DNA from: Convolutriloba macropyga
Taxonomy: Eukaryota
Assembly: GCF_964194025.1 (NCBI RefSeq)
Contig: NC_134468.1
Location: 50,034,001-50,098,000 of the forward strand
Direction: 5' to 3'
DNA: 64,000 nt
The notes below the pieces were generated by a model. That model made no database searches and was not told where the DNA came from. It saw only the letters and a list, made by a program, of their open reading frames with translations. The translations under genes were made by a program, and so were the position numbers. Position 1 is the stretch's first letter. Every line of letters starts with the position of its first letter. Below are positions 12,426 to 30,579 of the stretch, piece after piece.

Positions 12426-12837
12426 CGTCGTACAGTAATCGAATTGTGTACTGTATATCCCTTGTGTGTTCGCTTAACAATTAAAAATATATTAATTTGC
12501 TTAGCAAATCAACTTACTAATTCTGTTTCGCGATATCTGAGAGTGGATACGGTTGTCAAAGTTAAATGTTGAATTGGGCAACTGTACACGAGAAGCAAGA
12601 TGAACAGAATGAGTTTAGTAGGTACTTGAACACCAATTGAACAAATACTTTAACAGGTACTTGAACAAATAACAGTTGCCAGTGAGGGAAGTTTATTGGT
12701 TGACATACACTTGAAACAATAACTGGTGAAGGGTGTTCGTGAACTGAACTTAACATCTTAAAATATGACCAATAAATTAAGTTCATTGTTATAAATTTTA
12801 CTGAACTAGGCTAGGAATATGGTTATCATGTATGACA
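12426..12837 (-). repeat. Gypsy 5' LTR
   Basis: Similar to 8209-8598; followed on the minus strand by PBS-like (C)GGTGCAGCCAGC and gag. Confidence 0.8.
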
Positions 12838-13510
12838 GGAACCAATCATTAAATACGCAGTGACTGTGTTGAATTTTTCTAAGACTTACAAGCTTTTGGC
12901 GGTATATGCAGTGAAAAAATTTTAGAGTTAAAGATGCATATTTGACCGCTTCTAACTTTCGATTTAATTGGTTTATAAAAAAGGGTAATAAATGCGTTGG
13001 CAGAACTGAACAAAATATTGCATTATCGGTATTCATCACAATTGACAGAATTATTTCTTACATAGGGGTTTTGTTTCTAACCACTGTAAACGCAAACAAT
13101 TGCTCCTTCTCGTTCACTTTTTGTCATACACCCCCTGATATTCCTAGTATTGTGTGCTGGTCATCACTTGACTAGTTCCACTGGGACCTATCGCGATGAC
13201 ATGTCAAGTTGTTTGTTTTTCTTCTGAGTGGCATAACTATTAATTGATTATTTTGAATCAACATGGGTTCTAAAAGCCTTCAGGGTATTCCTTGAAACAT
13301 ATCACTTTTGAGCCTTCCAGTCGTTACGGCGCAGCTAAGTTGTGTATAGAAAAAGATTAACCGTTATCGTAACAATGTATTTATTGTGGTAGCTGACAAG
13401 TAACAAAAAACTCATGTCACGATGTTATCCAATACATGTTTTTCACTATATTGTTTTCACATTCATTGCCAACGCAAGCCTTACAAAAATTCTAATCGGT
13501 AAAGGATGTC

Positions 13511-13633
13511 AGTAGTAAGATAATAGGGTACTAAGATAGGGGGGGTTATCCTTCGAATTAATACGTGTGATAATAGGGGGTTATCCTTGGCGGCGCTACA
13601 TGTAAAACAACGGCCGTGCGTGATACATGTAAA
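13511..13633 (+). repeat. Left terminal inverted repeat (123 bp)
   Basis: Reverse complement of 29941-30065 except a G7 vs G9 run. Internal repeats ATAGGGGG(GG)TTATCCTT x2 and TACATGTAAA x2. Confidence 0.97.
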
Positions 13634-13699
13634 TTGGCATGTAGGTTGTGCGGAAAAGCCTGACTAGAGTCATTTTTGAGTGAGCGTTCATAAAATCAT

Positions 13700-14113
13700 A
13701 TGGCTACAATTGCTACAGTTGATTTGAAGAGTATTCACAAAACTTATAAGGAAATCGAAAAAGAATATTCACAATACGGTGAACGGTTTTTATACTTTTT
13801 AGCTACTTGTCTTCATTTGGATCCTGAGATTGATTTAGATATAGCTTTGAAACTACGACCCTATGGTGGTTTGATTGGCATCGACAATTCAGCCCTCGAC
13901 AAATATTTTAAATCGTTCAAAGTTTTGAGACTGCATGCGATACTTCACGACGCTTCCGGTTTTGTATATGAATATAGTGAAAAGGGTCCAGGCTATTCCT
14001 ACGTATTACCTTGTTCAGTCACAAATGAGTACCTTGGTCATGTGACTGGAATTGCTTTTTGTTTATACGTAAAATCCTTCAAAAATAGTTTATTCAATTT
14101 GCTGGAATGTTGA
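13700..14113 (+). CDS. Polinton accessory protein with HxxxHD motif (possible PLA2/DUF1353-like fold), 137 aa
   Basis: Intact ATG ORF, first gene after the TIR; PYGGLIG...LRLHAILHDASGFVY...GPGYSY. Function is inference. Confidence 0.7.
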   Translation: MATIATVDLKSIHKTYKEIEKEYSQYGERFLYFLATCLHLDPEIDLDIALKLRPYGGLIGIDNSALDKYFKSFKVLRLHAILHDASGFVYEYSEKGPGYSYVLPCSVTNEYLGHVTGIAFCLYVKSFKNSLFNLLEC

Positions 14114-14691
14114 AATCTGGAGCAGTTGTTCTTGATTTTGAAGGCTTTAGAAGTAAAAAATCTGGATTTATAATAAAAGAACTTGCGGTATCTACCAAAA
14201 ATTACAACGATACAATTTCGTTTTTACCTCCAAACTCATTTAACATACTTTCTTCGAGTGAGCAAAGATCTTTCCTGTGGGTATCTAAATTTCTTCATGG
14301 TCTCTCGTGGGAGACAGGAGAGTACCCTTATCATTATTTGCAACAGATTTTTCAAAGTATAGTTCTTCGATTTCCCTTTTCTGATTTTTACGCAAAAGGA
14401 TTAGAAAAAACGGAAACTTTACGGCAGCTGTTACAGAGGAACGTTATCAACTTGGAAACTTTGTTTTGCCCAAAAATTGAACACTTGAAATTATATCGGG
14501 AGACACCAGTTTGTAAGTTACATGCATTGAGTTGCCCAAAACGACAAAGAAGCAAGCATTGTGCCAATAAGAAGGCAAAACTTTTTTACCAGTGGCTGAC
14601 GAATGAATCGTCGGTTGGAGAAACCAGCTCCGTCTCTACTTCAAGTGAATTTGTCTCCAAATTTGACAGTTTACAGTTGCATAACGCCTGA
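14107..14691 (+). CDS. DEDD/DnaQ-family nuclease, Maelstrom/arenavirus-NP-like, 194 aa
   Basis: VVLDFEGF...IKELAV ExoI-like motif; CxxH (CKLH) and HCA near the C-terminus. Confidence 0.75.
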   Translation: MLKSGAVVLDFEGFRSKKSGFIIKELAVSTKNYNDTISFLPPNSFNILSSSEQRSFLWVSKFLHGLSWETGEYPYHYLQQIFQSIVLRFPFSDFYAKGLEKTETLRQLLQRNVINLETLFCPKIEHLKLYRETPVCKLHALSCPKRQRSKHCANKKAKLFYQWLTNESSVGETSSVSTSSEFVSKFDSLQLHNA

Positions 14692-14932
14692 AAATCAGTT
14701 AACGGTTACTCTTATCAAGGAAGAAAAAATTGACACAAGAGGGCAAACAGTTTTAAGAAAACAGCAGATCGTGTGTGCTGGTGCTGAAATAGAAGCTTTC
14801 AAGAAGTATCTTTCTCTACTGGAGTACTTTCAATTGTACCATGTCTTTACAAGAGAAAATGAAAAGGTTGAAACTAACCCCTTTACCTACGCCCAAGCGT
14901 GCAGTGCCAATTCTGATGTCTCTGGACGATGA
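14603..14932 (+). CDS. Polinton hypothetical protein, 109 aa
   Basis: ATG ORF overlapping both neighbours in a compact same-strand block; no motif recognised. Confidence 0.5.
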   Translation: MNRRLEKPAPSLLQVNLSPNLTVYSCITPENQLTVTLIKEEKIDTRGQTVLRKQQIVCAGAEIEAFKKYLSLLEYFQLYHVFTRENEKVETNPFTYAQACSANSDVSGR

Positions 14933-15095
14933 GACTCTTCCCGATGAAATCAAGCAGCTGATTAAAGAGAACAATGTAGAGTCAATTGTTTTTAGAGATA
15001 AACAAGATTCGATGAATGCAAACTATACAATCACTTACAAACAAGGAGACAACGACTCTGGATATGTTTTGTATGAATTTTTTATTGTTGAATAA
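14841..15095 (+). CDS. Polinton hypothetical protein, ~84 aa
   Basis: ATG ORF whose TAA stop lies inside an AATAAA (15091-15096). Confidence 0.55.
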   Translation: MSLQEKMKRLKLTPLPTPKRAVPILMSLDDETLPDEIKQLIKENNVESIVFRDKQDSMNANYTITYKQGDNDSGYVLYEFFIVE

Positions 15096-15147
15096 ATATG
15101 TAACATTCTTGAAAAGCAATTCATTTTTTGAATAATTTTGTTTCAAA

Positions 15148-15423
15148 ATGAGTCAAACCGAAGATCAACTAGATTCGGGCGGAGGCATAACTGACATGGT
15201 TTTTGACGCTGACCACCAAGAAAGACGATCTTGGAGGTTTTGCAATTCGAGATTGCCTCGATCAGAGGTTGTATACTTTACACAAATCTTAATAATAATT
15301 TTTCTTATAACTGTGTCTCTCGCCAAGTTGGTTTTTTTCAGTCTCGACTGTGAAGAATCCACATTTTGGTTTTCACTTCTCTCTTGTACAGTTGGATACG
15401 CTCTTCCAAATCCAAAGTTATGA
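15148..15423 (+). CDS. Small membrane protein upstream of the ATPase, 91 aa
   Basis: Two hydrophobic segments (VVYFTQILIIIFLITVSLAKL; FWFSLLSCTVGYALPNP); stop overlaps the ATPase start (ATGA). Confidence 0.8.
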   Translation: MSQTEDQLDSGGGITDMVFDADHQERRSWRFCNSRLPRSEVVYFTQILIIIFLITVSLAKLVFFSLDCEESTFWFSLLSCTVGYALPNPKL

Positions 15424-16160
15424 ATAAAATTATTTCCACCTCTGACCGGTTGTTCATGGCTGTTTGCGGGCCATCTTGTTGCGGGAAAACTGAGCTCATT
15501 TTCAAAATGTTATTAGTTGGCACTTTTTTCCCAGAATTTCAAACAATTTATTATTTTTATCAGCACGATCAGCCCAAATTCCAATCGTTAGAGAAGAAAC
15601 TGAACATACATTTTAAAAAATTCTCTAATTTTGAACTCATTTCAGAGTTAGACAACTGCCTCCTTGTGTTCGATGACTCATGTGAAGAAATTTTTAATGA
15701 CAAAGAATTTTCAAAATTAGCAACCGCAGGGCGACACAGAAACATCAGTGTAATTTATGTTAAACACAATTTGTTCCAGCAAAGCAGATGGTCCAGAACA
15801 ATTGATCTAAATACAACACATATCATATTGTTTAAATCACCGCGTGACACACAACAGATTACTTTTATTGGTAGACAGTTGAATAACTCTCAATTTTTAA
15901 AAGAAAGCTATGAGCTGGCAACTAAAGAACCGTTTGGTCATTTATTAATTGATTTGGATCCCAAAACATCAGACGTCTTGCGCTACTGTTCAAATATTGT
16001 TCCTCCAGGACCATCAATTTTTTATCTGCCATCAGCTAAAGCCGTTATTACAAGTTTAAGCGATGAGAGAGAAAGAAGTTTGTATGCTGGGGCAGCTGCT
16101 AAACTTATCGGACACAAAACTAAAAGAGAAGATAGAGAGAGCTCCAAATCATTTCATTAA
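15420..16160 (+). CDS. A32/FtsK-HerA-like DNA packaging ATPase
   Basis: Walker A GPSCCGKT, Walker B LLVFDD, GRHRNISVIYVKHNLF. First ATG is at 15420 (the track used TTG at 15366). Confidence 0.95.
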   Translation: MNKIISTSDRLFMAVCGPSCCGKTELIFKMLLVGTFFPEFQTIYYFYQHDQPKFQSLEKKLNIHFKKFSNFELISELDNCLLVFDDSCEEIFNDKEFSKLATAGRHRNISVIYVKHNLFQQSRWSRTIDLNTTHIILFKSPRDTQQITFIGRQLNNSQFLKESYELATKEPFGHLLIDLDPKTSDVLRYCSNIVPPGPSIFYLPSAKAVITSLSDERERSLYAGAAAKLIGHKTKREDRESSKSFH

Positions 16161-16362
16161 ATTCCTTTGCGAATGTTTGCTCAACATTGTCAATGGTAAT
16201 GTTCCAATACGAAAAAGTTTTGTCCAAGGCTATGAAAAATCATTCAGAAAACTATTGTCTAAACAAACAAGTTTGAAAGAAAAGAGGCAACTTTTTGCTA
16301 GAGAAACAGATTTGGTCAAAACTGTTGGTTTCGCTTGTTATCGTTATTTGACAAAATCGTAA
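16063..16362 (+). CDS. Small basic Polinton protein (CECxLNxxxGNVP type), ~99 aa
   Basis: FLCECLLNIVNGNVPI motif of the kind seen in the gene after the ATPase in animal Polintons; TAATG coupling to the next gene. Confidence 0.8.
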   Translation: MREKEVCMLGQLLNLSDTKLKEKIERAPNHFIKFLCECLLNIVNGNVPIRKSFVQGYEKSFRKLLSKQTSLKEKRQLFARETDLVKTVGFACYRYLTKS

Positions 16363-17108
16363 TGCACACCGAAGAATTCATTTTAATTCCAAAACGAATG
16401 TTTGCTTCACATCAACCGGTAAAAAAAGAAGTTTTGGACAATCCCCTTTACAAACAGAAAGCTGCACAGCTGTCTCTTTTGCAAAGAAACCAGTCGAATT
16501 CAATGGAAAAACCAGAGAGAGCAGTTGAACCAGTTGAGACTGCAGACAAAATGATTGAAACAGCAGAAGAGGAAAAAACAGAACCCATGAGCGAAGACAG
16601 CGAGATTGAACCAGTAGTGAAAAAACAAAGAAAAAGCGAAGATTTCGACTCCATATTGTTAGAGCTAGATTTTATGAATAAAAACCAAATCAAAAGATCA
16701 AAAATCATACTTGACTTGATTAACCAATCTGAAACAGTAACTGTAGAGTCGAACGACGTTCTTCACGTAAATAAAGAAAGACTGGGCATTAAAGCTTCAA
16801 CATTTCTGTACAATCTGCAGCAACCAACTAAAAAAATTGACATTGAAAAATACTCCAAAATTTTAATTGCTCTTAATATCTCACCTCATCTTGTTGCAAA
16901 TACACATGCCAAGCAAATCTTGGAAGCCTCGTCTGAAAGTGAACAAGAGTTTTTCCCAAGTAGAGAACAACCCAGTCGGCAAGAGCTCTTCTCTAGTAGA
17001 GAACAACACAGTGGCTCAAAACCAACCCAAAAAAGATATAAAGAAGAACCGGACCAAACGACAGACGAAGAAGAGACCAGTCAGAAGATGTGGTCTTTCT
17101 TTTCCTGA
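16362..17108 (+). CDS. Polinton hypothetical protein, 248 aa
   Basis: ATG at 16362 overlaps the upstream TAA; acidic low-complexity segments; 36-nt internal tandem duplication (QEFFPSREQPSR/QELFSSREQHSG). Confidence 0.8.
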   Translation: MHTEEFILIPKRMFASHQPVKKEVLDNPLYKQKAAQLSLLQRNQSNSMEKPERAVEPVETADKMIETAEEEKTEPMSEDSEIEPVVKKQRKSEDFDSILLELDFMNKNQIKRSKIILDLINQSETVTVESNDVLHVNKERLGIKASTFLYNLQQPTKKIDIEKYSKILIALNISPHLVANTHAKQILEASSESEQEFFPSREQPSRQELFSSREQHSGSKPTQKRYKEEPDQTTDEEETSQKMWSFFS

Positions 17109-18011
17109 AGTAAAAAAATTGGATCAGTTTTATTTAAAAGGACCAGCATCGTATGGAAGCATAAAGCGGTTACAGACGCAAAGCAAGCTCCCTCTAGGTA
17201 AAATTCAGTCCTATTTGGAGACAAAGCCGTCTTTCACAAAGTACCGTTCAATTCGATTTTTCCCAGGCTTAAAGTTTTTGTAAAAGACATCAACGAAATT
17301 TGGTCTCTGGATTTGGCACACGTTGATAAACTGGCAAAGTATAACCGCAATATAAAGTATCTTCTAGTAGCGGTTGATTGTTTGTCAAGATATTTACGAG
17401 TGGAACCAATGAAAACAAAGTACGCAACCGAAGCAGCTGAAGCATTCAAAAAGATGATCAAAAACAAACAACCCGAAAAAGTATGGGTTGACGATGGTAC
17501 AGAATTTCTTGGAGCATTCAAACAATTGTGTACCAAACGTGGAATTCATTTATATAATACCTTTAGCGAAAAAAAGTCAGCTTTTGCAGAGAGGAACATT
17601 AGATCTCTCAAAAAGATAATTCATCGGTATCTTGAAGAAAAGTGGACCTATAGCTACATTGACCAATTAGACCAATTTGTGAAAACAATCAATTCAAGAG
17701 TCAATCGAATAACAAAAACTGCTCCTAACAAAGTTACAAAAACGGATGTGCCACGACTAGTGTCATTGGCAGCACAAACAAGCTCAACCCAGAAGCCCAA
17801 GTTTTACATTGGAGACTTTGTGAGAGTAGTTAAAAAAGATAAAGCTTTCAGGAAAAGTTATATGCAATCATTCACAGACGAAGTCTTTGAAATAACGGGA
17901 ATACCGACATTAAGCCCACCAACATACACCTTAGCCGACGCAAACAAGGAACCAATTCAAGGAAAATTTTACCAACCAGAATTACAACTTGTCAGGCTCC
18001 CTCTTGTTTAA
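16906..18011 (+). pseudogene. Retroviral-type (RVE, DDE) integrase with a frameshift near 17257
   Basis: N-terminal part LDQFYLKGPASYGSIKRL...TKYRSIR is in one frame. FPRLKVFVKDINEIWSLDLAH...VWVDDGTEF...AFAERNIRSLK...GKFYQPELQLV is in the -1 frame. The only upstream in-frame ATG is 16906, so the start is uncertain. Confidence 0.9.
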
Positions 18012-18012
18012 A

Positions 18013-18897
18013 ATGTCCACCAACCGGTTTGAAGACGAGTTTACAGTTCACGTTGTTTCATCAGCTTCAATGGAAATATTTGATACAAATACACTTGCAT
18101 CATTTCGGAATTTTTTCAGTGATGAAATTCAACTTGCAGGTGATTGGAGAGTGGCGCTAAGTGAAATCATATTCCCAACCAAAATAGAAAACATAGTAAA
18201 CGGAAATCTAATTGCGTACAACTTAAAAGACTTTGAAGATTCCCAAAAGATTTCTTCGGGAGCCAATGTTATTTCTAGACCTTATAGTGGACAACAATTT
18301 AGTTTTATGCCAGGAACCTTTGATACAGTGGCTCAACTTCTTGCTACAATTAAGCGCACAATTGGCCTGCCCCATTTTTCATTCAGAGAGTTGAAGAGCT
18401 CTGGGAAATATGAAATTTTATTTGGCAAGTATGAGGGAATTACGTTTCCCAGCGAAGAAATTCCCAGCATTATTGGATTTAAGGGTATTCCTGACGGCAA
18501 TGGAATACACATTGGGTACAAAATGATTCCCAATGCGAACAGGTTTATGAAAAGTGATGATACGAAAGCTTTTTATGGGGAGTTCCCAGCTGACCTTTGT
18601 GCTGGAAAACATCTAATTTTCATATACACCAACATAATTGAATACCAATACGTCGGTGACACTAAGGCTCCTCTTTTGCGAGTCATTGATTCAAAACAAC
18701 GTCTGAAAAACGGTAGTGTTTGTGAGCTTGAACCCACTCATAGGATAGTTTTTACAAATTTAGACTATAAGAAGCTCCTAACTAACACAATTCAATCGAT
18801 TTCAATCGAACTGAGAACGGAAACAGGACAATTAGTTCCCTTTTCGGGAACTGGAAAAGTTATTCTAACACTACAATTCAAAAAATTTTCCCCTTAA
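18013..18897 (+). CDS. Minor capsid protein (penton, single jelly roll)
   Basis: FTVHVVSSASMEIFDTNTLASFRN...WRVALSEI and FIYTNIIEYQYVGDTKAPLLRVI are typical of Polinton minor capsid proteins; ATG at 18013. Confidence 0.9.
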   Translation: MSTNRFEDEFTVHVVSSASMEIFDTNTLASFRNFFSDEIQLAGDWRVALSEIIFPTKIENIVNGNLIAYNLKDFEDSQKISSGANVISRPYSGQQFSFMPGTFDTVAQLLATIKRTIGLPHFSFRELKSSGKYEILFGKYEGITFPSEEIPSIIGFKGIPDGNGIHIGYKMIPNANRFMKSDDTKAFYGEFPADLCAGKHLIFIYTNIIEYQYVGDTKAPLLRVIDSKQRLKNGSVCELEPTHRIVFTNLDYKKLLTNTIQSISIELRTETGQLVPFSGTGKVILTLQFKKFSP

Positions 18898-19320
18898 ATG
18901 GATTCTTATTATGCCAATCAAGCAACGTCTTTGCCTCACTTCTCTGGACATTATCGTCAAAGAGGAAGTGGTTTTGGAGCTCTAGCTGCAGGCATTGGAC
19001 GTGTTGCGCTACCTTTAGCACGTCGTTTCATTTTGCCTACAGCGAAGCGTATCGGGAAAGAGCTATTGAAACAAAGTGTTCCAGAGATTTTGGATGTAGT
19101 CGGAAGCAAAAAATCTCCTAAACAGGCGTTTAAAAATACAATCTCAAAAACTGTCAAAAAACAGACAGGAGGATCTCGCCGAAATACTTCACGTCGGAGG
19201 AATTCAATACGAGTCAAGCCACAGAAAGCAATCAACAAACGCAAAAAAACCATTTCAACGCACAGAGCTCCAAAAAGAAGTCGGTCAGATTTTTTTGCCA
19301 GAGTGAACGATGATCGCTAA
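18898..19320 (+). CDS. Basic virion core / membrane-active precursor protein, 140 aa
   Basis: YYANQA...QRGSGFG followed by an amphipathic helix; QTGG then an Arg/Lys-rich tail; lies between the two capsid genes. Confidence 0.85.
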   Translation: MDSYYANQATSLPHFSGHYRQRGSGFGALAAGIGRVALPLARRFILPTAKRIGKELLKQSVPEILDVVGSKKSPKQAFKNTISKTVKKQTGGSRRNTSRRRNSIRVKPQKAINKRKKTISTHRAPKRSRSDFFARVNDDR

Positions 19321-20620
19321 TTTGTTACCATCAGAGGCAACTCACAGTTCTTTGGATTTGTTCGAAAAACCTTCTCTCTTAGTAACTTTCGATGGTAGTT
19401 TTTGTCAAAAGGTGGGCCCAGTCTACAGTCCAAATGGACCCATGTTAGAATTTGAAGTCGCCGGTGACCGAAATAATTTTATTGACTTACAGAAAATTTT
19501 CTTGGAAGTGAAATGTAAAATTGTCCAGTTATCAGAAGCTGATTTGAGATATGACGCAGGAGCAGCAACAGATGTTACGAAGACAGATGCTCCCTATTTT
19601 TGCAATAATGTTTTACATTCACTCTTCTCTGACTGTACAGTGTCTGCTAATGGACTAAAAATTTCAAACGCTAACGGAAACTATGCTCATAAAAGTTTTA
19701 TTGAAACAGAATTTTCACATAACAAAGATGCAAAAAACACCTGGTTGGCATGTCAGGGCTATTCCTACGAAGAAAATCCAGGAGCGTTGTCAACTGTAGA
19801 AGTGAACAGAAGGAAAGCCCTAGTGAGGCAATCGGCTGAGTGCACATTTTACGGTAAAGTTGCAGTTGACTTTTTCACTTGTGACAGACATTTGCTAAGT
19901 GGTGTGACACTTCGCATTGCGTTTAGACGGTCAATAGATGATTTTGTTATAATGTCTGACGATGCAGCCAAGCACTACAAAGTAAAAATTGTCGAAGCTA
20001 ATTTATATGTGCGCAAAATGACATTGAACGATGATGTCGTATCGGCTATAGAAAAGACTTTGTTAAAAAGTCCAGCTTCGTATCCCTACTTGGAGACTCT
20101 AACAAAAACATTTCTGGCATCAACGGGTCTCCACAGTTGGAAACAAGAAGATATTTTTGCCAGAGAACCGATTCGTAGACTAGCAATTTGTCTGAACACT
20201 AACGAAGCGTTTCTTGGTAACAACAGACAAAATCCATTTAATTTCCGCAAATTCGACCTTGAGCAGATTTATATTTACCGAAACGGTTTACCTGTGGCAG
20301 ACAGTCCAATATCAACAAGTGATGACAAACGTCTCTACTTTAATACAATATCGGATTTAGCTTACATCGACAATGGTCATGGAATAAGTTTGACAGATTA
20401 CCCGAACCATTTCATAATGGTTTTTGATTTGACCAGTACCCAACAAGCATCCCATGATTTTATTCACCCTGAGCTTACAAATTCGTCAATTTCTATTGAG
20501 TTGAAATTTTCTGCGGCCCTACCGAACAATATAGAGATTTTCATTATTGGCGAAAAAGCGAGCACAATTTTTGTTGATAGTGCAAGAAGAGTATCAAAGA
20601 ATCACATTCTGACAAATTAA
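19310..20620 (+). CDS. Major capsid protein (double jelly roll), 436 aa
   Basis: SSLDLF, NNVLHSLFS, NPFNF, FDLT motifs; size and position typical of Polinton MCP; intact. Confidence 0.93.
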   Translation: MIANLLPSEATHSSLDLFEKPSLLVTFDGSFCQKVGPVYSPNGPMLEFEVAGDRNNFIDLQKIFLEVKCKIVQLSEADLRYDAGAATDVTKTDAPYFCNNVLHSLFSDCTVSANGLKISNANGNYAHKSFIETEFSHNKDAKNTWLACQGYSYEENPGALSTVEVNRRKALVRQSAECTFYGKVAVDFFTCDRHLLSGVTLRIAFRRSIDDFVIMSDDAAKHYKVKIVEANLYVRKMTLNDDVVSAIEKTLLKSPASYPYLETLTKTFLASTGLHSWKQEDIFAREPIRRLAICLNTNEAFLGNNRQNPFNFRKFDLEQIYIYRNGLPVADSPISTSDDKRLYFNTISDLAYIDNGHGISLTDYPNHFIMVFDLTSTQQASHDFIHPELTNSSISIELKFSAALPNNIEIFIIGEKASTIFVDSARRVSKNHILTN

Positions 20621-21054
20621 TGATGGATGAAGATGATATTAATGATTTAATACAAGGCTGCAAAACTCTTAAATACAAATTTCATGGCGTGTTTGCGGCC
20701 AACAACTTTCCGGAAAAAATGAACAGAAACAGCTTCCTTATTGTTAATGCAGCAACTGCTGAAAATATTGGCACCCACTGGTTACTTTTATGCAGAAAGA
20801 ACAATCAACTTCTGTTTGCCGATCCCCTTGGTCGGTCCATTTCATCGTACAAACACCTATATCAAAGAATCATTTCTGTTGGCAACAATCATAATATCTA
20901 TCAACTCTTGGAGAATCAACCAATTCAAAGTGCAAACTCTAAACTTTGTGGACTGTTTTGTATTTATATTGCTCATTTTGTTTTCAATGCTCAAAAACTT
21001 GTAAATATTAGCGATAATGAATTGATTCGTTTTGCTTTTCATATGATGTTCTAA
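20620..21054 (+). CDS. Adenain-like cysteine maturation protease, 144 aa
   Basis: GTHW (His), ADPLG (Asp), Q...CGLFC (oxyanion Gln and catalytic Cys). Confidence 0.95.
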   Translation: MMDEDDINDLIQGCKTLKYKFHGVFAANNFPEKMNRNSFLIVNAATAENIGTHWLLLCRKNNQLLFADPLGRSISSYKHLYQRIISVGNNHNIYQLLENQPIQSANSKLCGLFCIYIAHFVFNAQKLVNISDNELIRFAFHMMF

Positions 21055-21085
21055 CCTTACTAACTTGAAAAATTTATTTTTTTTT

Positions 21086-21781
21086 TCAAAACTTTACTTT
21101 TTCTTCATACACAAAGCGAACACTCAATAAATCAGAATCAATATTCAATTTTCCATATCCACTCAAAAAAATATCCATAATTTGACAAAAAGCACCAGAA
21201 TGAGGACCATACAAAATTGTTTCAACTCTGCGTAAAGTTTCACTATTGACAAAATCAGTTTGAATTTGTTTTGATGGAGGCCGGCAATTGTAGATAGTCT
21301 TTTGGGTAACTACTGGCATCTTGGCACTCGTTTTGGGATTGACATTTGTTTGTTTTGCAGAGCTGCTTTTCGATAAATTGTTGTTGTTGTTAGCAAAAGC
21401 TGGTAGTCGTTTGCGCACTGACTGCGAATCAATTTTTTCTGCAGAACTGTTGAAATCGATTGCTAATTTAAGCTTTGAAAACACATCTCCATTAGTCTCC
21501 AAATTTGGTGCAGTCCAAAACAGGAACTTAAAAGCTGTATAAACACAAGGCACAGGAAAGCTTTGAAATCGTTTCAATGTTTCGTTTTCAAAAGTAGTTG
21601 TATCAATCAAAACGTGATAATGGCTATTTACTAAATTGCAAAATTCGGAATCAAAATGTGCACACACTGCATAACAATTTCCAATTGAAAAGGTAGGTTT
21701 CTCTTCCACAATGAGAAATTTGAACTGTTTCTGAAATTGTTTAAAGTAATTTGGAGAACGCTCAAACATCGCTTCAACCAT
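21086..21781 (-). CDS. Polinton accessory protein with HUH-like motif (HYHVLI), ~231 aa
   Basis: ATG at 21781 overlaps the stop of the PC4-like gene; CYAVCAH...SHYHVLIDT...VYTAFKFL; minus-strand AATAAA at 21073-21078. Confidence 0.75.
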   Translation of the reverse strand: MVEAMFERSPNYFKQFQKQFKFLIVEEKPTFSIGNCYAVCAHFDSEFCNLVNSHYHVLIDTTTFENETLKRFQSFPVPCVYTAFKFLFWTAPNLETNGDVFSKLKLAIDFNSSAEKIDSQSVRKRLPAFANNNNNLSKSSSAKQTNVNPKTSAKMPVVTQKTIYNCRPPSKQIQTDFVNSETLRRVETILYGPHSGAFCQIMDIFLSGYGKLNIDSDLLSVRFVYEEKVKF

Positions 21782-22091
21782 CGTTGTTGACAACTTCTTT
21801 TTGAATTTTTGGTTTCTTCGCTGGTGGTGGTTTTGGCGATGACTGCTGATCAGCCACTGAGTTCTTTATTTTGCTAGCTGAACTGACCAAATTTTCAAAT
21901 TCTCCAAGAGTTAACGAAATTCTCTGTTCAAACTCGTAATCGTCTGTTGCTTTTTTGAACAATTTCAGAAATACATATGTCCCTGTCCTTTCATAGGTTT
22001 TCAGCGTTGCCCTGATTAAGCGCTTATCAGTTTTGGAAATATCGAAATAACAATCTCCAAACTCAGTGTCTTTAGTGGACGTGAAAGGCAT
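21774..22091 (-). CDS. PC4/Sub1-like ssDNA-binding protein with C-terminal NLS, ~105 aa
   Basis: Beta-rich core ending ISLTLGEFENL, resembling the PC4 GISL..EW..L signature; PPAKKPK NLS-like motif; first ATG at 22091. Confidence 0.75.
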   Translation of the reverse strand: MPFTSTKDTEFGDCYFDISKTDKRLIRATLKTYERTGTYVFLKLFKKATDDYEFEQRISLTLGEFENLVSSASKIKNSVADQQSSPKPPPAKKPKIQKEVVNNDG

Positions 22092-22311
22092 AGTGTGCAA
22101 CTTGTTTTATTACTTTCAAGTGTTATAATGTGTAAAAAGTACAATTCAATGGGAGCGGCAAGTTGGGATTAAACAAGTGTCGTCAAACTGCCTAATTAAA
22201 TCCAAATGATTTGTGAATACAGTCTCAAGTACGCCTATGGCGTACTTGAGTCTGTCTGTTGTTCAAGTATTGTATAATTAATTTCAGCTGTGACCTTAGA
22301 TAAGACAAAAA

Positions 22312-22690
22312 AACATATGTGACGCTAGGTGTGTACTTGAACCAGCAGTGCAGTGTACACTGTTTATTATATGTGGACCATATGTTTATAATTTGGAACA
22401 CATGTGACCCTAGTGTGTACTTGGACCAACGGTGCAGTGTACACTGTTTATTGGAATTGTCCATATGTTTATAACTTGGAACACATGTGACCCTAGGTGT
22501 GTACTTGGACCAACGGTGCAGTGTACACTGTTTATTGGAATTGTCCATATGTTTATAACTTGGAACACATGTGACCCTAGGTGTGTATTTGACGTCATTG
22601 TAGTGTACATTGGTTATTGGAATTGACCATATGTTGAACAGATGTGACCCTAGGTGTGTATTAAAATTAGAAACACATGTGAACCTACAG
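22312..22690. repeat. ~84-bp tandem repeat array rich in palindromes (about 4.5 units)
   Basis: GTGAC(C)CTAG anchors at ~22319, 22404, 22487, 22571, 22644. Core units contain CAGTGTACACTG, CACATGTG, CCTAGG, CATATG and TTATAA. Confidence 0.9.
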
Positions 22691-23056
22691 CAGTAGGGAA
22701 ATTTTGATAAGATTAAACATGTACCAGTGTACAATGAAATGCTGATAATAAAATGCGTTCTAGATAAGAATTGAGTTAGTACACACAATAGACTGTATCA
22801 ACCCATGTATAATAACTTAGAGCATATAACAGAGCATATACACTACCAAAAACAAAACCAAATTTGACCCCACACATAAATTGTCGAATTACACGTTGTA
22901 TAATACAACTTTAGAACTAGGTATTCATTTTCTTTAAACCTTGCGTTCAGTGCACTTTGCTTTCTTTCAAGAGTTCGTTACTAGACAAACATTATTTTTC
23001 AACCGTCTTTTATCAAATTGGTTTTAGTTTCTTTCTTAAAATTTGTGCAAAAAATT

Positions 23057-23752
23057 ATGTCAGTTCAAATACTTGCTGAATCTGTTATTTCTTTCGAGCG
23101 AACATTGGTTTATCAGACAGTGTTCGAAAACTTTGTTGTGCTGATTCAACAGAAGAGACAAGGTGATGTTTGGCAAACTTACCAGCACTGTTTGATACCT
23201 AAGCTTTTTATTAACGCAATTGCTTCTTTACCAGAGAAGACAGAACCAGCAGAATGCAGTGTTATTACATCAGGGGGACATTTACCTCCAAAAGCGTTGC
23301 CAAAATTTCAACATCTTGAAATGGAGTCATTACAAGACGACGTTAAACGAGTTTTGTTTCGTTACGATTGCGACTGTGTGCCTCTGTTTGAAAACCAGCT
23401 AGGGGCTTATCAAGCTTGCGAAAATTTAGGTGACATGTGGGGCATAAAGTCATCACCTTACTCCCCAGAGAACCAATCGCAATTGGATTCAGTCAGCTTG
23501 CCAGTAACACCAGCAGTTGATCCGAGTCCCAGTTTGACACCGACATCTAGTCCATCTCTCTTTGCTGGAATTCACAAGAACAATTCTACCGCTCTGCTCA
23601 GTGAAAACCAGTTTGATACAGCGTTACTTTCAGCTACACAATTTCAAAAACCAGAACCAGCACGTGTTTTTGGCGTTACAGACACGCCAAAGATTTGCAA
23701 TGCACCAAAGAAACGGCTACCTGAGAATTCTTTAATGGACTTATTTGATTGA
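23057..23752 (+). CDS. Polinton hypothetical protein with Ser/Pro-rich C-terminal half, 231 aa
   Basis: ATG at 23057 (the track used TTG at 23018); AATAAA at 23816. Confidence 0.7.
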   Translation: MSVQILAESVISFERTLVYQTVFENFVVLIQQKRQGDVWQTYQHCLIPKLFINAIASLPEKTEPAECSVITSGGHLPPKALPKFQHLEMESLQDDVKRVLFRYDCDCVPLFENQLGAYQACENLGDMWGIKSSPYSPENQSQLDSVSLPVTPAVDPSPSLTPTSSPSLFAGIHKNNSTALLSENQFDTALLSATQFQKPEPARVFGVTDTPKICNAPKKRLPENSLMDLFD

Positions 23753-25421
23753 CTTGAAAAACTTTGATGAATCACCACCATTTTATATTGTGAGACGCTA
23801 ACTTGATTTTGTTTCAATAAAGTGTGATGTCAACTTTTTGAATTTAACTTTTAATATCTGTTTTGTAGATTTAAATCTGCTGAGCCAAAGAAATTATAAT
23901 TTCTCTACTGATCAAGTTCGAACATGTTCAGAAGGGGTTTTAATTATGACGTAAACATTCGTTTCCTAACAAACCCTCAATTATTGCAACTACTGTGACG
24001 TGGTGTGAGAATTATATCCATAAATACTTTTCTCAATCTACGAAATTTTTGTTAGCATTATATTAAAAATGAAATTTAAGAGATATAGCCATAGGTTAGA
24101 GTAAGCGGTATTGACGCTAATGACATGCTAACTTCATACCACAGCTGTAGCATGGACTGAATTCCAATTTCAATTCATAAGTTGAAGAAATGTTGAAAAA
24201 AAAAGAAAAACAATCAAAGAAAATTTTCGAAAAAATACCTTTCAAACGTCAATTTTTGAAACTTATCTCAAAAGATGCGCTCTCCAGCTTACACTAGAAT
24301 CACCTCCCATTTGTTACTTGGGAATCAAGTGAAAGAAAAAGAGCATGTTTGTTAAAAAAAATCAAAAAAAAGTCAATAAAAAAATTTTTTTTTGACACAT
24401 GACCTCTGACATTTGACCCTAAAAAAGAGGGCTCCAAAAAATACTTGGGATGAAACTGATTGTTTAGTAAGCCTCAGCATACTCTAAAGTACAAAACATC
24501 TCATCACACTCGTCAAATTTTACTCATCCGTTATGGAGATAATTAGCCCCTAATTAGCGACTAATTAAGGGTTAATTAACCTAATTACTAATTACTGAAA
24601 AAAAAATTTCAAATTTTTGCAACGGATTTTTTATCACCGCTTGATGCCTGACATAATTGCTCATAAGCATCATCATCAAAAAATGGCTCCTTCACCGATT
24701 TTCAAAACATCTGGCAATCAATGTCACATTAACATCTGGCATTAATTAGCATATGAAGTACCCTAAGGAAAGATGTTAGATCGGCTTTCTTCACATTTTT
24801 GGACTTGATGGATCCTCAGTGCAAATTTATCTCATAACAGCTGTCATCAAAAAAGGCCTCAGAAAAAAGACACATGTTTATGTCATGTAATTGTCATGTA
24901 ATTGTTAATTAATGACTTGATTGACAGAAAAATAAACTTTTTTTCTGTTTATTTTTGAGCAATTTTTTCATATGGGTCCTATGTTTTTCGGCACGGGGAG
25001 CATTTTTGCTCATCACACTTAAGAACGTAGGACAACTCTAACCACCCGTAATTGAAAATGCATAAAATAGCGCATTTTATTACAATTTTAAAAATTATCA
25101 TGTTTTTCCAGCTTCTCCAAAAACGTTTTTTGAAAAAAAAAATGACCAGCAATACTCTGTAGGGCTCCTTATGGTGATATATTCTGGCATAGGATTGCAA
25201 TGGAGATTTGAAAACACATCTTTTTTCTCTCATAACTAACAAAATTTCGAAATAAAGGTAACCGCCAAAACCGACCAATCAGATTGCAGCATTTTGAAAT
25301 TTTGAATTTCGCGCACAGAAATTACATTCGTGTTTCAGTTTTGGTGAGCTTAGTCATTTCCGAGTTATTTACTTGTTATCAAAGTTCTGTTAGAATTTGA
25401 AATTCATCAAAACTATTAGAA

Positions 25422-28400
25422 ATGGTCTATTCATGCAACTTCTGTGACGCTACGTTTAGCACTCGTGGGAACCGTTCAAGACATCAACATAAATTCCATC
25501 CAGACGATGTTGGCCTTCCTGTTTACAACTGCTCCCTATGTGTGTTCAATTCACGGAAACTGTCTGAATTGGAACAGCATATGCGAACTTGCCACTCGAA
25601 GTTTACAAACTGCTGCCGATCGTGCTTCATGGGATTCAATGATGCGCACTTGTTTGCGCAGCATATGAACTCCCTTCACTCGCTGCCGGTATTTGGACCT
25701 GAATACCAACCGAAAGAGGCTACAGCGGAGACAGCCTTCAACGGTGTGTTACAAACTTATGAAATTGTCAATAACACAGCTGACAGAGATCTTGAGAGCT
25801 TCATGCTCAATCAAAGATCTGCAATTGCAACGCTAATTGAGCAAAGGCTGAGCCAAGGACCACAGAAAGTACAATTTGCGGTAAAAGTACAGTTATTGAA
25901 GCTGCATCAAGATGAAAACGCAACCGAAACGGAGGAGCGCATTGAAATTTATGCCAACTCCCTCATGACGCCCATTTACGTAGAGGGTCTCACAAACGAG
26001 TTGTACTGGAGCATGGTGGAGAAAATGATGGCTGTCTTGTCTACGTTTGCTTCATCTGGAAGTGGTTGAGTTGTTGAAAAAATAATCAAACTTGACATCA
26101 AATTTGCCCGCTACCGACCAATTCGCGGCTCATCCTATCTTGCCTTACCCCATAAGCTCGCAAACTGTCGCGGATTACTCAACATTCGAAACCACGACGA
26201 TGCCAATTGTTTCAACTATTGCTTCGTGGCAGCGTATCATGCGCATCATGGAATCAGTCTTGATAGAGATGACAGGAACTATCATATTGACAAAACATCC
26301 CCAGCAACATATCAGCAAGAGAACATTCACCAACCTGTAGGCGAATTTGAAATGCCAATGGCATTTGAGCAAATGAAAGCCTTTGAAACCCTCAATGATG
26401 TGGCAATCAACGTCTTTGGTTACGATAAAGGACAACTTTACCCTCTACGAGTCTCCTCTTTTGAATCAGATTTTGTTATGGATCTTTTACTTCTTTATGA
26501 TGCCGACATTTATCACTATGTTCTCATTACTGACCTTGTGAAAGTCGTTTGTAAAGTTAGAGACCTGAAATTCAGATTTGGTTATCGCATTTGTCGTAAT
26601 TGTTTCTGGTTGTGTCGTGATGGACTGGAAAGCTATAATATTCATACTGAAAATTGTTATCTAAATGCCCCTGCAGTTATTCAAATGCCATCACCAGATA
26701 AAAATGAATACAAGTTCTCAAATTTTTCAGCTACGTGGTTTGTTCCTCTGGTCATTTATTTTGACTTTGAATCTTTTCTCATACCCGTCGCTGGATGTGA
26801 TGCAGCAACTGACCAATCATCAACACGCGTGATTGAAAAGCACGAGCCATGTGGATTTGCTTTGGCAGTTGTTGATCATCACTCGAACGTTCCCTATTTT
26901 CATCATGTGGACAGCTCAGAAGATTGTATGGGCAACTTTGTTCGAATGCTGCATTCGTTAGCAAGGGACATACATGAACGCAAAAAACAGTTTCCTTTCT
27001 ACAACGGAAGTCGGAGAAGCTTGGACAAAAAGAGCGCTACACACTGTTGGATATGCGAAGAACCATTTGACAGCGATCTTGACCCCGAAGAGAGCATAGA
27101 TTTAGACCATTGTCATTTTAGTGGCCAATTCTTGGGCTGGGCACACGAAAAGTGTAATCGAGCGAGACGGTATGTCAATTTTACGCCTGTGGTCGGTCAT
27201 AACATACAAAACTATGACTTACATCATATTTGTCTTGCTCTGAACAACTGTGAGTCTACCACAACAATAAAAATCATTCCGTCAACAGATGAGAAATACA
27301 TATCAATGACATTCGGAGTTCTGATTGATACTATTACAACTCAAGAAGGAAGAACACAAAAAATTTACGAGTATTTAAGATTCATCGATTCGTACAAAAT
27401 GATGAACAGTTCGCTGGAAAAACTTGTAGAAATTTTACCTGACACACATTTCGATATCATGAAAGCAATGTTCCCGTCGGTTTCCGAATCAAACGCACAC
27501 TTACTCAAACAAAAAGGATATTATCCTTATACTTATGTATGTGATCGTACAAAGTTTTCTGAGCAATCTCTACCACCCCTCTCAGAATGGCGCAATACAT
27601 TAGAAGGCGGAAAATTGGCTGTTAGTGAAGAAAATTTAGGTCATGCTAACCAAATGTGGACGTTATTGGGGTGCAAAACTTTACAAGACTATCATGACGC
27701 ATACCTTAAACTTGACTGCGCACTATTAGCTTGTGTATGTGAGTTTCACCGTGAACTTAGCTTTCGAACATACAAACTCGACTGCATGCATTTCTACACT
27801 CTCCCCAATATGGCAAAAGAAGCGTCACTAAAGATATGCAGGGCAAACATTGAGCTGATGACAGAGCGAGAACATTTGGACATGATTGAACCGGCAATAC
27901 GAGGAGGAGTAACATCTGTTTACGAGGAGCGTCATTTTGTTGCAAATAATAAGTATTTATCGGATTACCGGCCCTCTGAGGAGTCAACTTTTGCGCTCTG
28001 TGTAGACGCAAATAATCTCTATGGAGGTGTCATGCAAATGGACATGCTACCAGTGGGGGAATTCGCCTTCAACGTAGAAATTACCCTTAACGAAATCCTC
28101 AATACCCCTAACGACGCTTCAGTTGGTTATTTTCTTGAAGTAGACTTAAATTACCCTGTCCACTTACACGATGACCACCGAGACTTTCCGCTTGCCCCTA
28201 CCAAAGAAATTGTTCAAGATGATTGGTTGGGCGAATATCAACTTGAGCTAAAAGAACAACACAGATTACCCAGCTCGAATGTTAAAAAGTTGCTTCAAAC
28301 GCTATTCGACAAAAAGAACTATGTATTGCATTACAAACTGCTCAAATTATACGTTAGTCTTGGATTAATTGTTGCCAAAGTACACCGTGTCCTACAGTTC

Positions 28401-29771
28401 AAACAAGCGAATTGGTTAGCGCCCTATATAACACTCAACAGTAATAAACGTCAAGCCGCCAGCAATAAATTCGAAGAGAACTTTTATAAGCTCATGAACA
28501 ATGCAGTATATGGTAAGAATTGCGAATCGAAACGCAGACGAAGTAAGCTTACCATTGCACGAGATGCTGATCAAGTTCTGAGTTCCATTTCAAAGTTTGA
28601 GTTTGATCGGTTCATGATATTCGGAGATAACCTGGCCGCATTGTCATTCCGCGCTAGAAAGATTTATTGGAATACCCCAACAATAATTGGAGCAACTATA
28701 CTTGATCTGGCCAAGTATCAAATGTACAGTTTCCATTACTTCATAATGCGCGCTCATTTTGATTGTCGTTTGTTATATAGTGACACGGATAGTTTACTAT
28801 ATAAAATCAGGAGTACAGACTTTTATGAGGAATTAGCAAGAAAGCCCGCTTCAGTTGTTAGTGAATTCGATTTCTCCAATTATCCGAATGATCACTATTT
28901 ATACAGTACGGAAAATAAACGGGTAGTCCTCAAGTTTAAGGACGAATTTGCAGGAGATTTTATTACGGAGTTTGTGTGTTTAAAGCCGAAACTATACTCA
29001 ATACTCTCAAAAAGTAAGTATTCTTTGTCTTTTCTAATGCATGTTAGTTCTATCTTTAAATTACAAAGGTTGTTAGTAGGCTCCTGAATGGTATTAGTTT
29101 TATTATTATATACATAGGGGTTAGTAAACATATAAAGACTTGATTAAAGGCTTTTTTTCTCTTTAGGTTGTCGAAAACTTTCGGCTAAAGGAGTAACAAA
29201 GGCCGCTCAACAACGTCTCCGGCATGATGATTTCTTGAGCACACTGACAACAGGGAACGTGTTTCGCACTGAAAACACAAGAATAATGTCCGATCATCAT
29301 GTATTGGAAACTGTTACTACCAACAAAATATGCCTTTCAGCGTTCGACAACAAAAGGTTTATTCTACCCTGCGGAACAAAAACTCTACCCTTTGGACATT
29401 ATGAGACCGTTGATTGTGGTGTGGATGAAATTGATTGGGGTAGTGATGATATTCAGTGGGATAATGACAGTTACTCAAACTTACTTCTCAGCTCTAGTCC
29501 AGAATGGGATAATGACTTTGTAGTGTCCCAAACTTCCTCAACAGCCGCTCTCTCAGTGCCAGACTCCACCACCAGCTCTTGGGAGACTCCCGACCCAGGA
29601 TTAGTAGTAACTGAGCAGATAACTGAATCTGATATTGATACTGACGATATTGCAGATATTGACGCCAGTTCCAGTGAAAGCTCCTCTCCTGACAACCCCT
29701 TCATAAACTTTGAAGCTGAAGAAGCAAGCAGCAGCGAAGAAGAACCAGCACGCAAAATAAGACGGCGCTAA
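25422..29771 (+). pseudogene. polB: Protein-primed family B DNA polymerase; two exons (25422-29013, 29167-29771) and one premature TGA at 26067-26069
   Basis: Three C2H2 fingers, then GSG*VVEK continuing in the same frame. OTU-like NCF...HYVLI segment, ExoI YFDFES, EndoVII-like CWIC...DHCH...CN, ExoII HNIQNYD, PolA DANNLYG, PolB KLMNNAVYGK, PolC YSDTDS. After splicing: SAKGV...DNKR...TLPFGHY. Confidence 0.95.
29014..29166 (+). other. Spliceosomal GT-AG intron in pPolB (153 bp, phase 1)
   Basis: GTAAGT donor; CTTTTTTTCTCTTTAG acceptor; in-frame stop inside. Removal gives KPKLYSILSKSCRKLSAKGV. Confidence 0.9.
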
Positions 29772-29940
29772 TGCCAATTTAATTGCATGCAATTTTGGTG
29801 AAACTGCGTGTAGTAATACACAGTGTAAATATTTAATTTGTTTGGAGTGTTTAGTTTGGTTTCAATTCAATCTTTTCTTACAAATCTAACAAACCGGAGA
29901 AAGGCGCAAAGGGAAAGGAATAAAAGCGGAAGAAAGCTAG

Positions 29941-30065
29941 TTTACATGTATCACGCACGGCCGTTGTTTTACATGTAGCGCCGCCAAGGATAACCCCCTA
30001 TTATCACACGTATTAATTCGAAGGATAACCCCCCCCCTATCTTAGTACCCTATTATCTTACTACT
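29941..30065 (-). repeat. Right terminal inverted repeat (125 bp)
   Basis: Reverse complement of 13511-13633; followed by the GATGTC TSD. Confidence 0.97.
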
Positions 30066-30210
30066 GATGTCAGAATTTTGATGCAGTTTGGTTATCGGTG
30101 GTGAAATTTGTTTTCACCGCAAGTTAGTTGCACTAAAAAATTTGGTGCTAGTTTTTGCCCATGAAAAGAGTGCAGCATCACTTTGTTTTTGGATGATGTT
30201 ATTTTCACAG

Positions 30211-30370
30211 ATAAACAAGTCCAAGATGCCCTTCAAGCAAATGGAGAACATCGGAAACTTCCTGGATGCATGTGCGAAATTTGGGGTGAAGCAGCACGAT
30301 ATGTTTCAGACAGTAGATCTTTACGAGGGCCAGAACATGTCACAAGTAGTCAATGGCATTTACGCTCTAG
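30211..30370 (+). CDS. Host calponin/transgelin-family gene, coding exon (C-terminal half of CH domain)
   Basis: ttttcacAG acceptor; INKSKMPFKQMENIGNFLDACAKFGV...DMFQTVDLYEGQNMSQVVNGIYAL(G). The donor appears to be GC at 30371. Confidence 0.92.
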
Positions 30371-30579
30371 GCTAGCTATTAATTTGGATTCAGTAAGCTC
30401 CCAATTGCACTAAAACTGATTTTTGTTAGTCAATGGCTTAACTATACATGACGGAGCACTAATGCTGTCTGTACTATCCTTCTATGCAAAATTTTGAATT
30501 AGCGTGGAAACTAAATTAAATTAGAAACTAGGTTAAGTAAATTTTGATGGTAACAAATACATAAAACTCAACAAGGAGG

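What the first reader, a model, noticed from the sequence alone, without database searches (positions are those of the whole stretch)
21086..22690. Reverse-strand module: PC4-like SSB + HUH-motif protein + adjacent palindromic repeat array
Seen: two coupled genes (ATGGTTGA overlap) on the opposite strand to all other element genes, directly downstream of the ~84-bp array. One looks like a PC4-family ssDNA-binding protein with an NLS. The other has H-Y-H-V-L-I followed by YTAFKFL. Established: HUH plus a downstream Tyr is the signature of Rep/NS1 nickases, and polyoma/papillomavirus origin-binding domains are inactivated HUH folds. Inference: a captured origin-binding/nicking and ssDNA-binding module acting on the neighbouring repeats, meaning a second internal origin or transcriptional switch in an element that otherwise replicates by terminal protein priming. 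This is my best candidate for an undescribed system here.
Basis: inference. Interest (0 to 1): 0.85.

Follow-up and report, generated by a model that had tools for sequence, protein, structure and literature searches.

The report
Polinton virus with disarmed nickase gene

Summary

The nickase reading fails. The RepB active-site Tyr aligns with F86, which is Tyr in 13 of 85 intact-site rows.

The array units do not fold.

Best reading: a nick-dead, metal-binding DNA-binding protein plus an SSB, in a divergent early control region. Binding to the array is untested. Ten literature searches gave no report of this pair.

The parts
13511..30065 (+). Polinton/Maverick element, 16,555 bp, flanked by the 6-bp target-site duplication GATGTC
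   Evidence: TIR arms 13509-13638 and 29936-30067; ends and TSD; pPolB, A32 ATPase and adenain protease by Pfam, weak rve
21086..21781 (-). ORF231: HUH/Rep-fold N-domain, disordered linker with LC8 motif, small C-terminal alpha/beta domain
21443..21739 (-). HUH/Rep-fold domain of ORF231 (residues about 15-113)
   Evidence: model pLDDT 85-97 per block over residues 11-110; VIA ranks 1-16 all Rep or origin-binding domains
21614..21658 (-). Conserved putative metal site H42, C48, H54-Y55-H56
   Evidence: H42+H54+H56 in 85 of 106 fully covering rows; with C48 and C79 in 82; aligns with the RepB SPLH...HYH segment
21515..21547 (-). Helix equivalent to Rep motif III (C79-W89); the catalytic-Tyr position is F86, and Y81 is a Tyr/Phe position
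21254..21274 (-). LC8/DYNLL-binding-like motif SKQIQTD (residues 170-176) at the end of the disordered linker
   Evidence: matches the pattern in the abstract of PMC3078936; core motif in 50 of 89 rows vs shuffled mean 2.1; pLDDT <50 at 137-174
21107..21244 (-). C-terminal alpha-alpha-beta-beta domain of ORF231 (residues 180-225), fold not assigned
21073..21078 (-). AATAAA just after the ORF231 stop; likely shared poly(A) signal of the leftward unit (inference)
21774..22091 (-). ORF105: four-strand plus helix PC4/Pur-type fold; candidate ssDNA-binding protein
21807..21824 (-). NLS-like PAKKPK of ORF105
   Evidence: pattern present in 48 of 65 rows of A2; NLS function is inferred
22219..22255 (.). 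Inverted repeat or hairpin, 17-bp arms (one mismatch), 3-nt loop; strongest local fold of the element
   Evidence: z -8.0 and -8.3, 0 of 200 shuffles as good; best 60-nt window of the element
22312..22697 (.). 84-bp direct-repeat array with short dyads and clustered CANNTG hexamers, degenerate after 22635
23057..23752 (+). Divergent 231-aa ORF on the other side of the array; Oncoid-like position upstream of pPolB
   Evidence: cluster of 160 members at 90% identity; 10 members aligned; no family match at E<1e-3
20620..21054 (+). Adenain-type protease, last gene of the convergent virion-gene block
   Evidence: Peptidase_C5 E 1.5e-7
25422..29771 (+). Protein-primed DNA polymerase B region, interrupted in this copy (stop at 26067-26069; frame break between 29087 and 29148, not examined)

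Best explanation
This Polinton lineage carries a leftward two-gene unit of DNA-binding helpers beside its internal control region. (1) ORF105 is a PC4/Pur-fold protein. By analogy with PC4-fold proteins it dimerises, enters the nucleus through its basic tail, and coats the single strand displaced during protein-primed replication; it may also co-activate transcription. The fold is supported; the function is inferred. (2) ORF231 descends from a captured rolling-circle Rep. It keeps the HUH fold and a three-His (plus Cys) metal site but has lost the conserved catalytic Tyr, so it probably binds DNA without nicking. Fold and Tyr loss are supported; DNA binding is inferred. An LC8 motif next to a small C-terminal domain suggests a host-LC8-stabilised dimer (motif shown, binding inferred), which would suit the 17-bp inverted repeat upstream of its own unit. 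The hairpin plus array is then a divergent promoter or enhancer between these genes and the Oncoid-like/pPolB side, not a second replication origin (inferred).
Confidence: 0.55

Rival explanations
1. One reading: ORF231 is an active Y1 nickase that cuts the neighbouring repeats or hairpin and, with the PC4-like SSB, gives the element a second, rolling-circle-type internal origin.
For: HUH fold and His triad conserved. The window has Y81-x3-K85, which fits the Yx2-3K motif III pattern given in PMC11253617. A hairpin with direct repeats about 60-80 bp away resembles the pMV158 nic/bind layout described in PMC9943647.
Against: Y81 is out of register, is Phe in 34 of 85 rows, and occurs with K85 in only 16 of 85. 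The residue changes 17 times on the tree, at least 3-4 of them forced by well-supported branches. The hairpin loop is 3 nt. No helicase gene was seen among the element ORFs.
Confidence: 0.08
2. ORF231 is still an enzyme but with a chemistry that needs no Tyr: the three-His metal site hydrolyses ssDNA or RNA, or uses another nucleophile, for example to process the hairpin, the displaced strand or the termini.
For: H42, C48, H54, H56 and C79 are all kept in 82 of 106 fully covering rows down to about 25% identity. A non-Tyr nucleophile is known in the MobM relaxase (recalled, not checked).
Against: C48 could close the coordination sphere as a structural zinc site (inference). C79 aligns with the N-cap of helix 3, probably far from the metal (inference from recalled topology). 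No direct evidence of activity.
Confidence: 0.12
3. ORF231 no longer binds DNA. The zinc-stabilised HUH domain is a scaffold and the protein acts through host proteins (LC8, trafficking, virion or anti-host role). The array is a host-factor enhancer or an unstable minisatellite unrelated to it.
For: Shrunken recognition helix. The LC8 motif and C-terminal domain are as conserved as the HUH core. The array holds 14 CANNTG hexamers in 441 bp vs 5.8 per kb elsewhere (inflated by the repetition). No significant shared site between hairpin and array.
Against: Tight coupling to a PC4-fold gene. Conserved basic and aromatic N-terminal helix and K-x-L-P motif. Known inactivated HUH folds mostly remain DNA binders (recalled).
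Confidence: 0.18
4. The HUH resemblance is a coincidence of a small ferredoxin-like alpha/beta fold that carries an HxH zinc motif.
Against: Sixteen of the top 16 VIA rows come from several unrelated Rep lineages; three libraries agree; the histidines fall on the same strands as in RepB.
Confidence: 0.07

Closest known systems
pE194/pMV158-family RepB and CRESS-DNA virus Rep endonuclease domains
   Same: Fold and strand order, extra His one strand before HUH, HYHV segment, small C-terminal second domain; origin layout of hairpin plus direct repeats (PMC9943647, passages).
   Different: No conserved motif III Tyr or following His/Lys; helix 1 absent and helix 2 very short; extra N- and C-terminal helices, conserved Cys residues, an LC8 motif; encoded in a protein-primed linear element.
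Inactivated HUH origin-binding domains of papillomavirus E1 and SV40 large T
   Different: Those are fused to an SF3 helicase and lost the metal His residues (recalled). ORF231 stands alone and keeps the His triad.
Mriyavirus HUH endonuclease, and HUH genes of Zora/VC218 PLVs
   Same: HUH gene in a double-jelly-roll dsDNA virus (PMC11253617 and 10.64898/2026.06.19.733378, passages).
   Different: The mriyavirus enzyme is predicted active, in viruses that lack a DNA polymerase. Here the host is a pPolB plus integrase Polinton and the Tyr is not conserved.
Fowl adenovirus ORF12
   Same: Described as an apparently captured parvovirus NS1/Rep gene in an adenovirus (one passage of PMC11071296), a precedent for Rep capture by a protein-primed virus.
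   Different: NS1-derived. ORF231 is closest in fold to nanovirus, circovirus and RepB domains, has no helicase part, and is paired with a PC4-fold gene. I found no paper on ORF12 function.
PC4/Sub1, phage T5 PC4 homolog, Pur-alpha, AcrIIA22
   Same: Four-strand meander plus C-terminal helix, conserved aromatic and basic strand residues.
   Different: No PF02229 match in 65 members; 11-20% identity; the fold cannot separate PC4 from Pur; carries an NLS-like tail.
SSBs of protein-primed viruses (PRD1 P12, phi29 SSB, adenovirus DBP)
   Same: The proposed job, stabilising the displaced strand (abstract and passages of PMC11886824).
   Different: P12 is OB-like; ORF105 has a PC4/Pur fold. That paper does not mention polintons or PC4 (0 occurrences).

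Membership tests
Polinton/Maverick (Polintoviricetes) | TIRs and 6-bp TSD | tested here: met
Polinton/Maverick (Polintoviricetes) | pPolB, packaging ATPase, adenain protease, rve integrase | tested here: met
   Pfam E 4e-8, 4.7e-5, 1.5e-7; rve only E 0.15 on a frameshifted gene
Polinton/Maverick (Polintoviricetes) | Major and minor jelly-roll capsid proteins | tested here: inconclusive
   19310-20620 and 18013-18897 named from position and recall; no Pfam or PHROG match; not folded
Active Y1 HUH Rep endonuclease | Rep fold with motifs on strands 1 and 3 and helix 3 | tested here: met
Active Y1 HUH Rep endonuclease | Motif II HUH, conserved | tested here: met
   H54 in 98 and H56 in 101 of 113 rows
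Active Y1 HUH Rep endonuclease | Third metal ligand upstream of HUH | tested here: met
   H42 in 107 of 113 rows; one column off the RepB SPLH His in the profile alignments
Active Y1 HUH Rep endonuclease | Motif III: conserved catalytic Tyr on helix 3 (YxxK type) | tested here: not met
   F86 in register; Tyr in 13 of 85, with K/H/R at +3 in 1 of 85; Y81 plus K85 in 16 of 85
Active Y1 HUH Rep endonuclease | Motif I (UUTU) | tested here: inconclusive
   hydrophobic strand 20-25 aligns with RepB strand 1 but has no Thr; the motif is described as less conserved (PMC10288648)
Active Y1 HUH Rep endonuclease | Site-specific ssDNA nicking with covalent adduct | not testable with these tools
   needs a bench assay
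Polyomavirus/papillomavirus origin-binding domain | Inactivated HUH domain fused to an SF3 helicase | tested here: not met
   the window protein is 231 aa with no helicase part; a search for longer relatives found none among 5,734 candidates, which is weak evidence for the family
PC4/Pur/Whirly fold superfamily | Four-strand antiparallel sheet followed by a long helix | tested here: met
PC4 family (PF02229) | Match to the family profile | tested here: not met
   not among the 25 of 35 families shown for 65 members; none for the window protein; the Atlas gives only a lead (score 0.88, cluster 59% PF02229)
PC4/Pur/Whirly fold superfamily | Homodimer that binds ssDNA | not testable with these tools
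   ssDNA binding needs a bench assay; the dimer was not modelled
LC8/DYNLL client | [D/S]K-x-[T/V/I]Q[T/V][D/E] in a disordered segment | tested here: met
   window motif fits exactly; strict pattern in 11, core in 50 of 89 rows
LC8/DYNLL client | Measured binding to LC8 | not testable with these tools
   needs ITC or pull-down
Rolling-circle double-strand origin (pMV158 type) | Hairpin plus direct repeats sharing the initiator's recognition site, nick site in the loop | tested here: inconclusive
   hairpin and repeats present; shared word not above chance; 3-nt loop; conservation in other elements not tested

The most novel reading that the evidence does not exclude
A family of animal Polintons captured a rolling-circle Rep and kept its metal site for a chemistry that needs no Tyr. 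As an LC8-stabilised dimer, helped by a PC4-fold SSB, it recognises and cuts or processes the internal 17-bp hairpin (or the displaced strand or termini). This would give a protein-primed virus-transposon an internal switch for excision, amplification or strand processing, and would be an HUH enzyme working without the canonical Tyr.
Probability: 0.12. Interest if true: 0.85.

Novelty: new variant of a known kind. Interest (0 to 1): 0.55.

Why it matters
How Polintons replicate has, to my recollection, not been shown at the bench, and I found no named Polinton SSB in the searches run. ORF105 is a concrete, small, testable SSB candidate with a fold unlike the OB-like SSB of PRD1. ORF231 would be a further case of a rolling-circle initiator turned into a non-cutting protein. 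Unlike the SV40 and papillomavirus domains it keeps the metal site and adds an LC8 motif. It links ssDNA-virus or plasmid Reps to Polinton gene content across a family with 360 representatives at 50% identity. It does not, on present evidence, show a new replication mode.

Tried and rejected
Sequence-level family searches assigned neither protein: Pfam, PHROGs, PDB sequences (the DnaB match at E 0.45-0.76 is treated as chance). tblastn of ORF231 gave nothing in phages and one E=10 match in plasmids. A scan of bacterial and archaeal genomes found no relative; two alignment queries were too variable to run. The Atlas gave only sub-0.8 unnamed clusters for ORF231. No longer, helicase-fused form was found (weak). 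The ORF231 homodimer prediction returned no answer (score 0.00, alignment not used, fold uncertain) and is not used either way.

Array units as cruciform origins: rejected. GYGTACTTG as a site shared by hairpin and array looked striking (5 of 5 window matches, 0.55 expected), but the pattern was chosen after the fact and a fair control gave 8.6%, so it was dropped to a lead. No Rfam match in 22000-25450. The sigma-70 scan is not meaningful for this element. No second copy of the genes or the array exists in the window. The C-terminal domain of ORF231 was not modelled alone, so its fold is open. The careful tree did not finish; the quick tree on 133 columns was used (101 of 113 rows, 12 dropped for incomplete N-domain or no C79). 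The supplement of PMC8502044 held none of six terms, not even 'Adintoc', so it cannot say whether these genes are among the Adintoc classes. Three plasmid accession look-ups found no record.

Full report
Setting. The finding lies in a Polinton at 13511-30065 with terminal inverted repeats beginning AGTAGTA and a 6-bp target-site duplication GATGTC. Pfam identifies the packaging ATPase, adenain protease and protein-primed PolB, with a weak rve match. The capsid genes are named from position and recall only. The polymerase and integrase are interrupted in this copy. The host looks like an animal from flanking sequence (a calponin-like exon at 30082-30375, recalled resemblance) and was not identified.

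Observation. ORF105 (21774-22091) and ORF231 (21086-21781) are on the minus strand, overlap by ATGGTTGA and are followed by AATAAA at 21073-21078. The 84-bp array (22312-22635, 3.9 copies, 89% matches) is real and fades out near 22697. It is a direct repeat with short dyads, and single units fold no better than shuffles. It has z about -8 with 0 of 200 shuffles as stable and is the best-folding 60-nt window of the element. On the far side of the array a 231-aa ORF (23057-23752) runs the other way, so hairpin and array sit in a divergent intergenic region.

The genes are a conserved pair. ORF231 has 138 and ORF105 197 relatives at E<=1e-3; the 120 listed for each are all unnamed ENA records. 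A profile of ORF231 finds 360 representatives at 50% identity, of which 150 were listed; ten distant ones come from ENA, Logan and JGI records without names. Of 411 stored proteins, 23 are read-through records with the ORF105 part first and the ORF231 part second. The two hit lists share 21 exact contig lengths (118 and 119 distinct values) against 0.08 after jitter. Linkage is therefore shown for close relatives only; none of 12 selected records, mostly distant or extended ones, held an ORF105-like segment. No DNA of related elements was reachable, so conservation of hairpin and array is untested.

ORF231 is probably not a nickase. H42, H54 and H56 are all present in 85 of 106 fully covering rows, and C48 and C79 as well in 82. 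PMC9943647 (passages) places a His triad, Tyr99 and His102 at the RepB active site; that Tyr99 is the nucleophile is recalled, and it is invariant in the 9 RepB-family proteins I aligned. The profile alignment (80 columns, E 0.0015, probability 16.7%) sets this Tyr against F86, His102 against W89, and Y81 against a Glu at the start of the helix, in step with the modelled helix 80-87. Position 86 is Tyr in 13 of 85 intact-site rows. Position 81 is Tyr in 39 and Phe in 34, Y81 with K85 occurs in 16, and no N-domain column exceeds 72% Tyr. On a quick tree of 101 rows the residue at 81 changes 17 times, and the window's Tyr clade is nested in a supported Phe clade. Against this conclusion: the register was not checked on coordinates, and the window itself has Y-x3-K, which fits the mriyavirus motif III pattern (PMC11253617, passages).

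LC8 motif. SKQIQTD (170-176) matches the DYNLL motif quoted in the abstract of PMC3078936 exactly and lies at the end of the disordered linker before a small folded domain, the context that abstract describes. The core [TVI]Q[TV][DE] occurs in 50 of 89 rows that reach the C-domain (shuffled mean 2.1, max 5), including 17 of 38 rows below 40% identity; the strict pattern occurs in 11 of 89. Binding is inferred.

Target DNA. Hairpin plus direct repeats recalls the pMV158 origin (PMC9943647 and PMC10288648, passages). GYGTACTTG occurs five times in the window, all in hairpin and array, but this pattern was picked after the fact, and 8.6% of element 17-mers share as long a word with an array unit. 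The array is rich in CANNTG hexamers (14 in 441 bp), which fits a host-factor enhancer equally well. No link between the proteins and this DNA is shown.

Mechanism. Most likely (0.55): an early leftward unit encodes an SSB or co-activator and a nick-dead, metal-binding, probably dimeric Rep derivative that binds viral DNA, with the inverted repeat upstream of its own unit as the first candidate site; replication stays protein-primed. Rivals: a scaffold acting through host proteins (0.18), a Tyr-independent nuclease (0.12), an active nickase with a second origin (0.08), a chance fold match (0.07).

Known systems and novelty. HUH genes are reported in mriyaviruses (predicted active) and in some PLV clusters. 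Fowl adenovirus ORF12 is described as a captured NS1 (PMC11071296, passage). Bidnaviruses combine pPolB with an NS1 helicase that lost the endonuclease (PMC4061559, passages). Ten library searches (listings and abstract starts) and term searches in PMC8502044 (passages, section 3.2, one supplement held as text), PMC11131425, PMC11296320, PMC11662393, PMC11886824 and 10.64898/2026.06.19.733378 gave no report of a PC4-fold or HUH-derived gene in animal Polintons. No paper was read in full. Verdict: a new variant of a known kind, interest 0.55.

Noticed in passing
window:23723-23752: The divergent 231-aa ORF ends in L-M-D-L-F-D, resembling the Rb-groove (CR1/E2F-type) motif; the resemblance is recalled and is one residue off the pattern in PMC8502044. 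Its position upstream of pPolB fits an Oncoid gene.
   Followed up: partly
hit tables: 19 of 216 distinct contig lengths fall at 14-17 kb, against 0 at 11-14 kb and 1 at 17-20 kb. This is close to the element's length; it could reflect free linear copies, collapsed repeats or read-length artefacts.
   Followed up: no
window:13597-13631 and 29943-29977: Each TIR carries TACATGTA twice around ACGGCCGT. The hexamer ACATGT also occurs five times in the array region, a possible shared binding site that was not tested for significance.
   Followed up: partly
window:23752-25400: A second long non-coding stretch before pPolB, with TAAT/TTAATTAA-rich dyads (24550-24581, 24881-24912) and an A/T hairpin at 24928-24956.
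   Followed up: no
window:13700-14691: Two 5' ORFs resemble a parvovirus-type PLA2 (137 aa) and a DEDD-type exonuclease (194 aa) by recalled motifs; no Pfam or PHROG support.
   Followed up: no
window:16906-18011, 26067-26069, 29087-29148: The integrase is split over two frames and pPolB has an in-frame stop and a later frame break, while ORF105, ORF231 and the virion genes are open and the TIRs are 98-100% matched.
   Followed up: no
window:44116-44626 and 47984-48627: Host-side tandem arrays of 142-176 bp units, related to each other by eye and unrelated to the 84-bp array.
   Followed up: no
window:1801-2211, 11977-12480, 32988-34242: Fragments of retroelement-like reading frames flank the Polinton (RVT_1 E 0.0045 for the first; the others by eye).
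   Followed up: no
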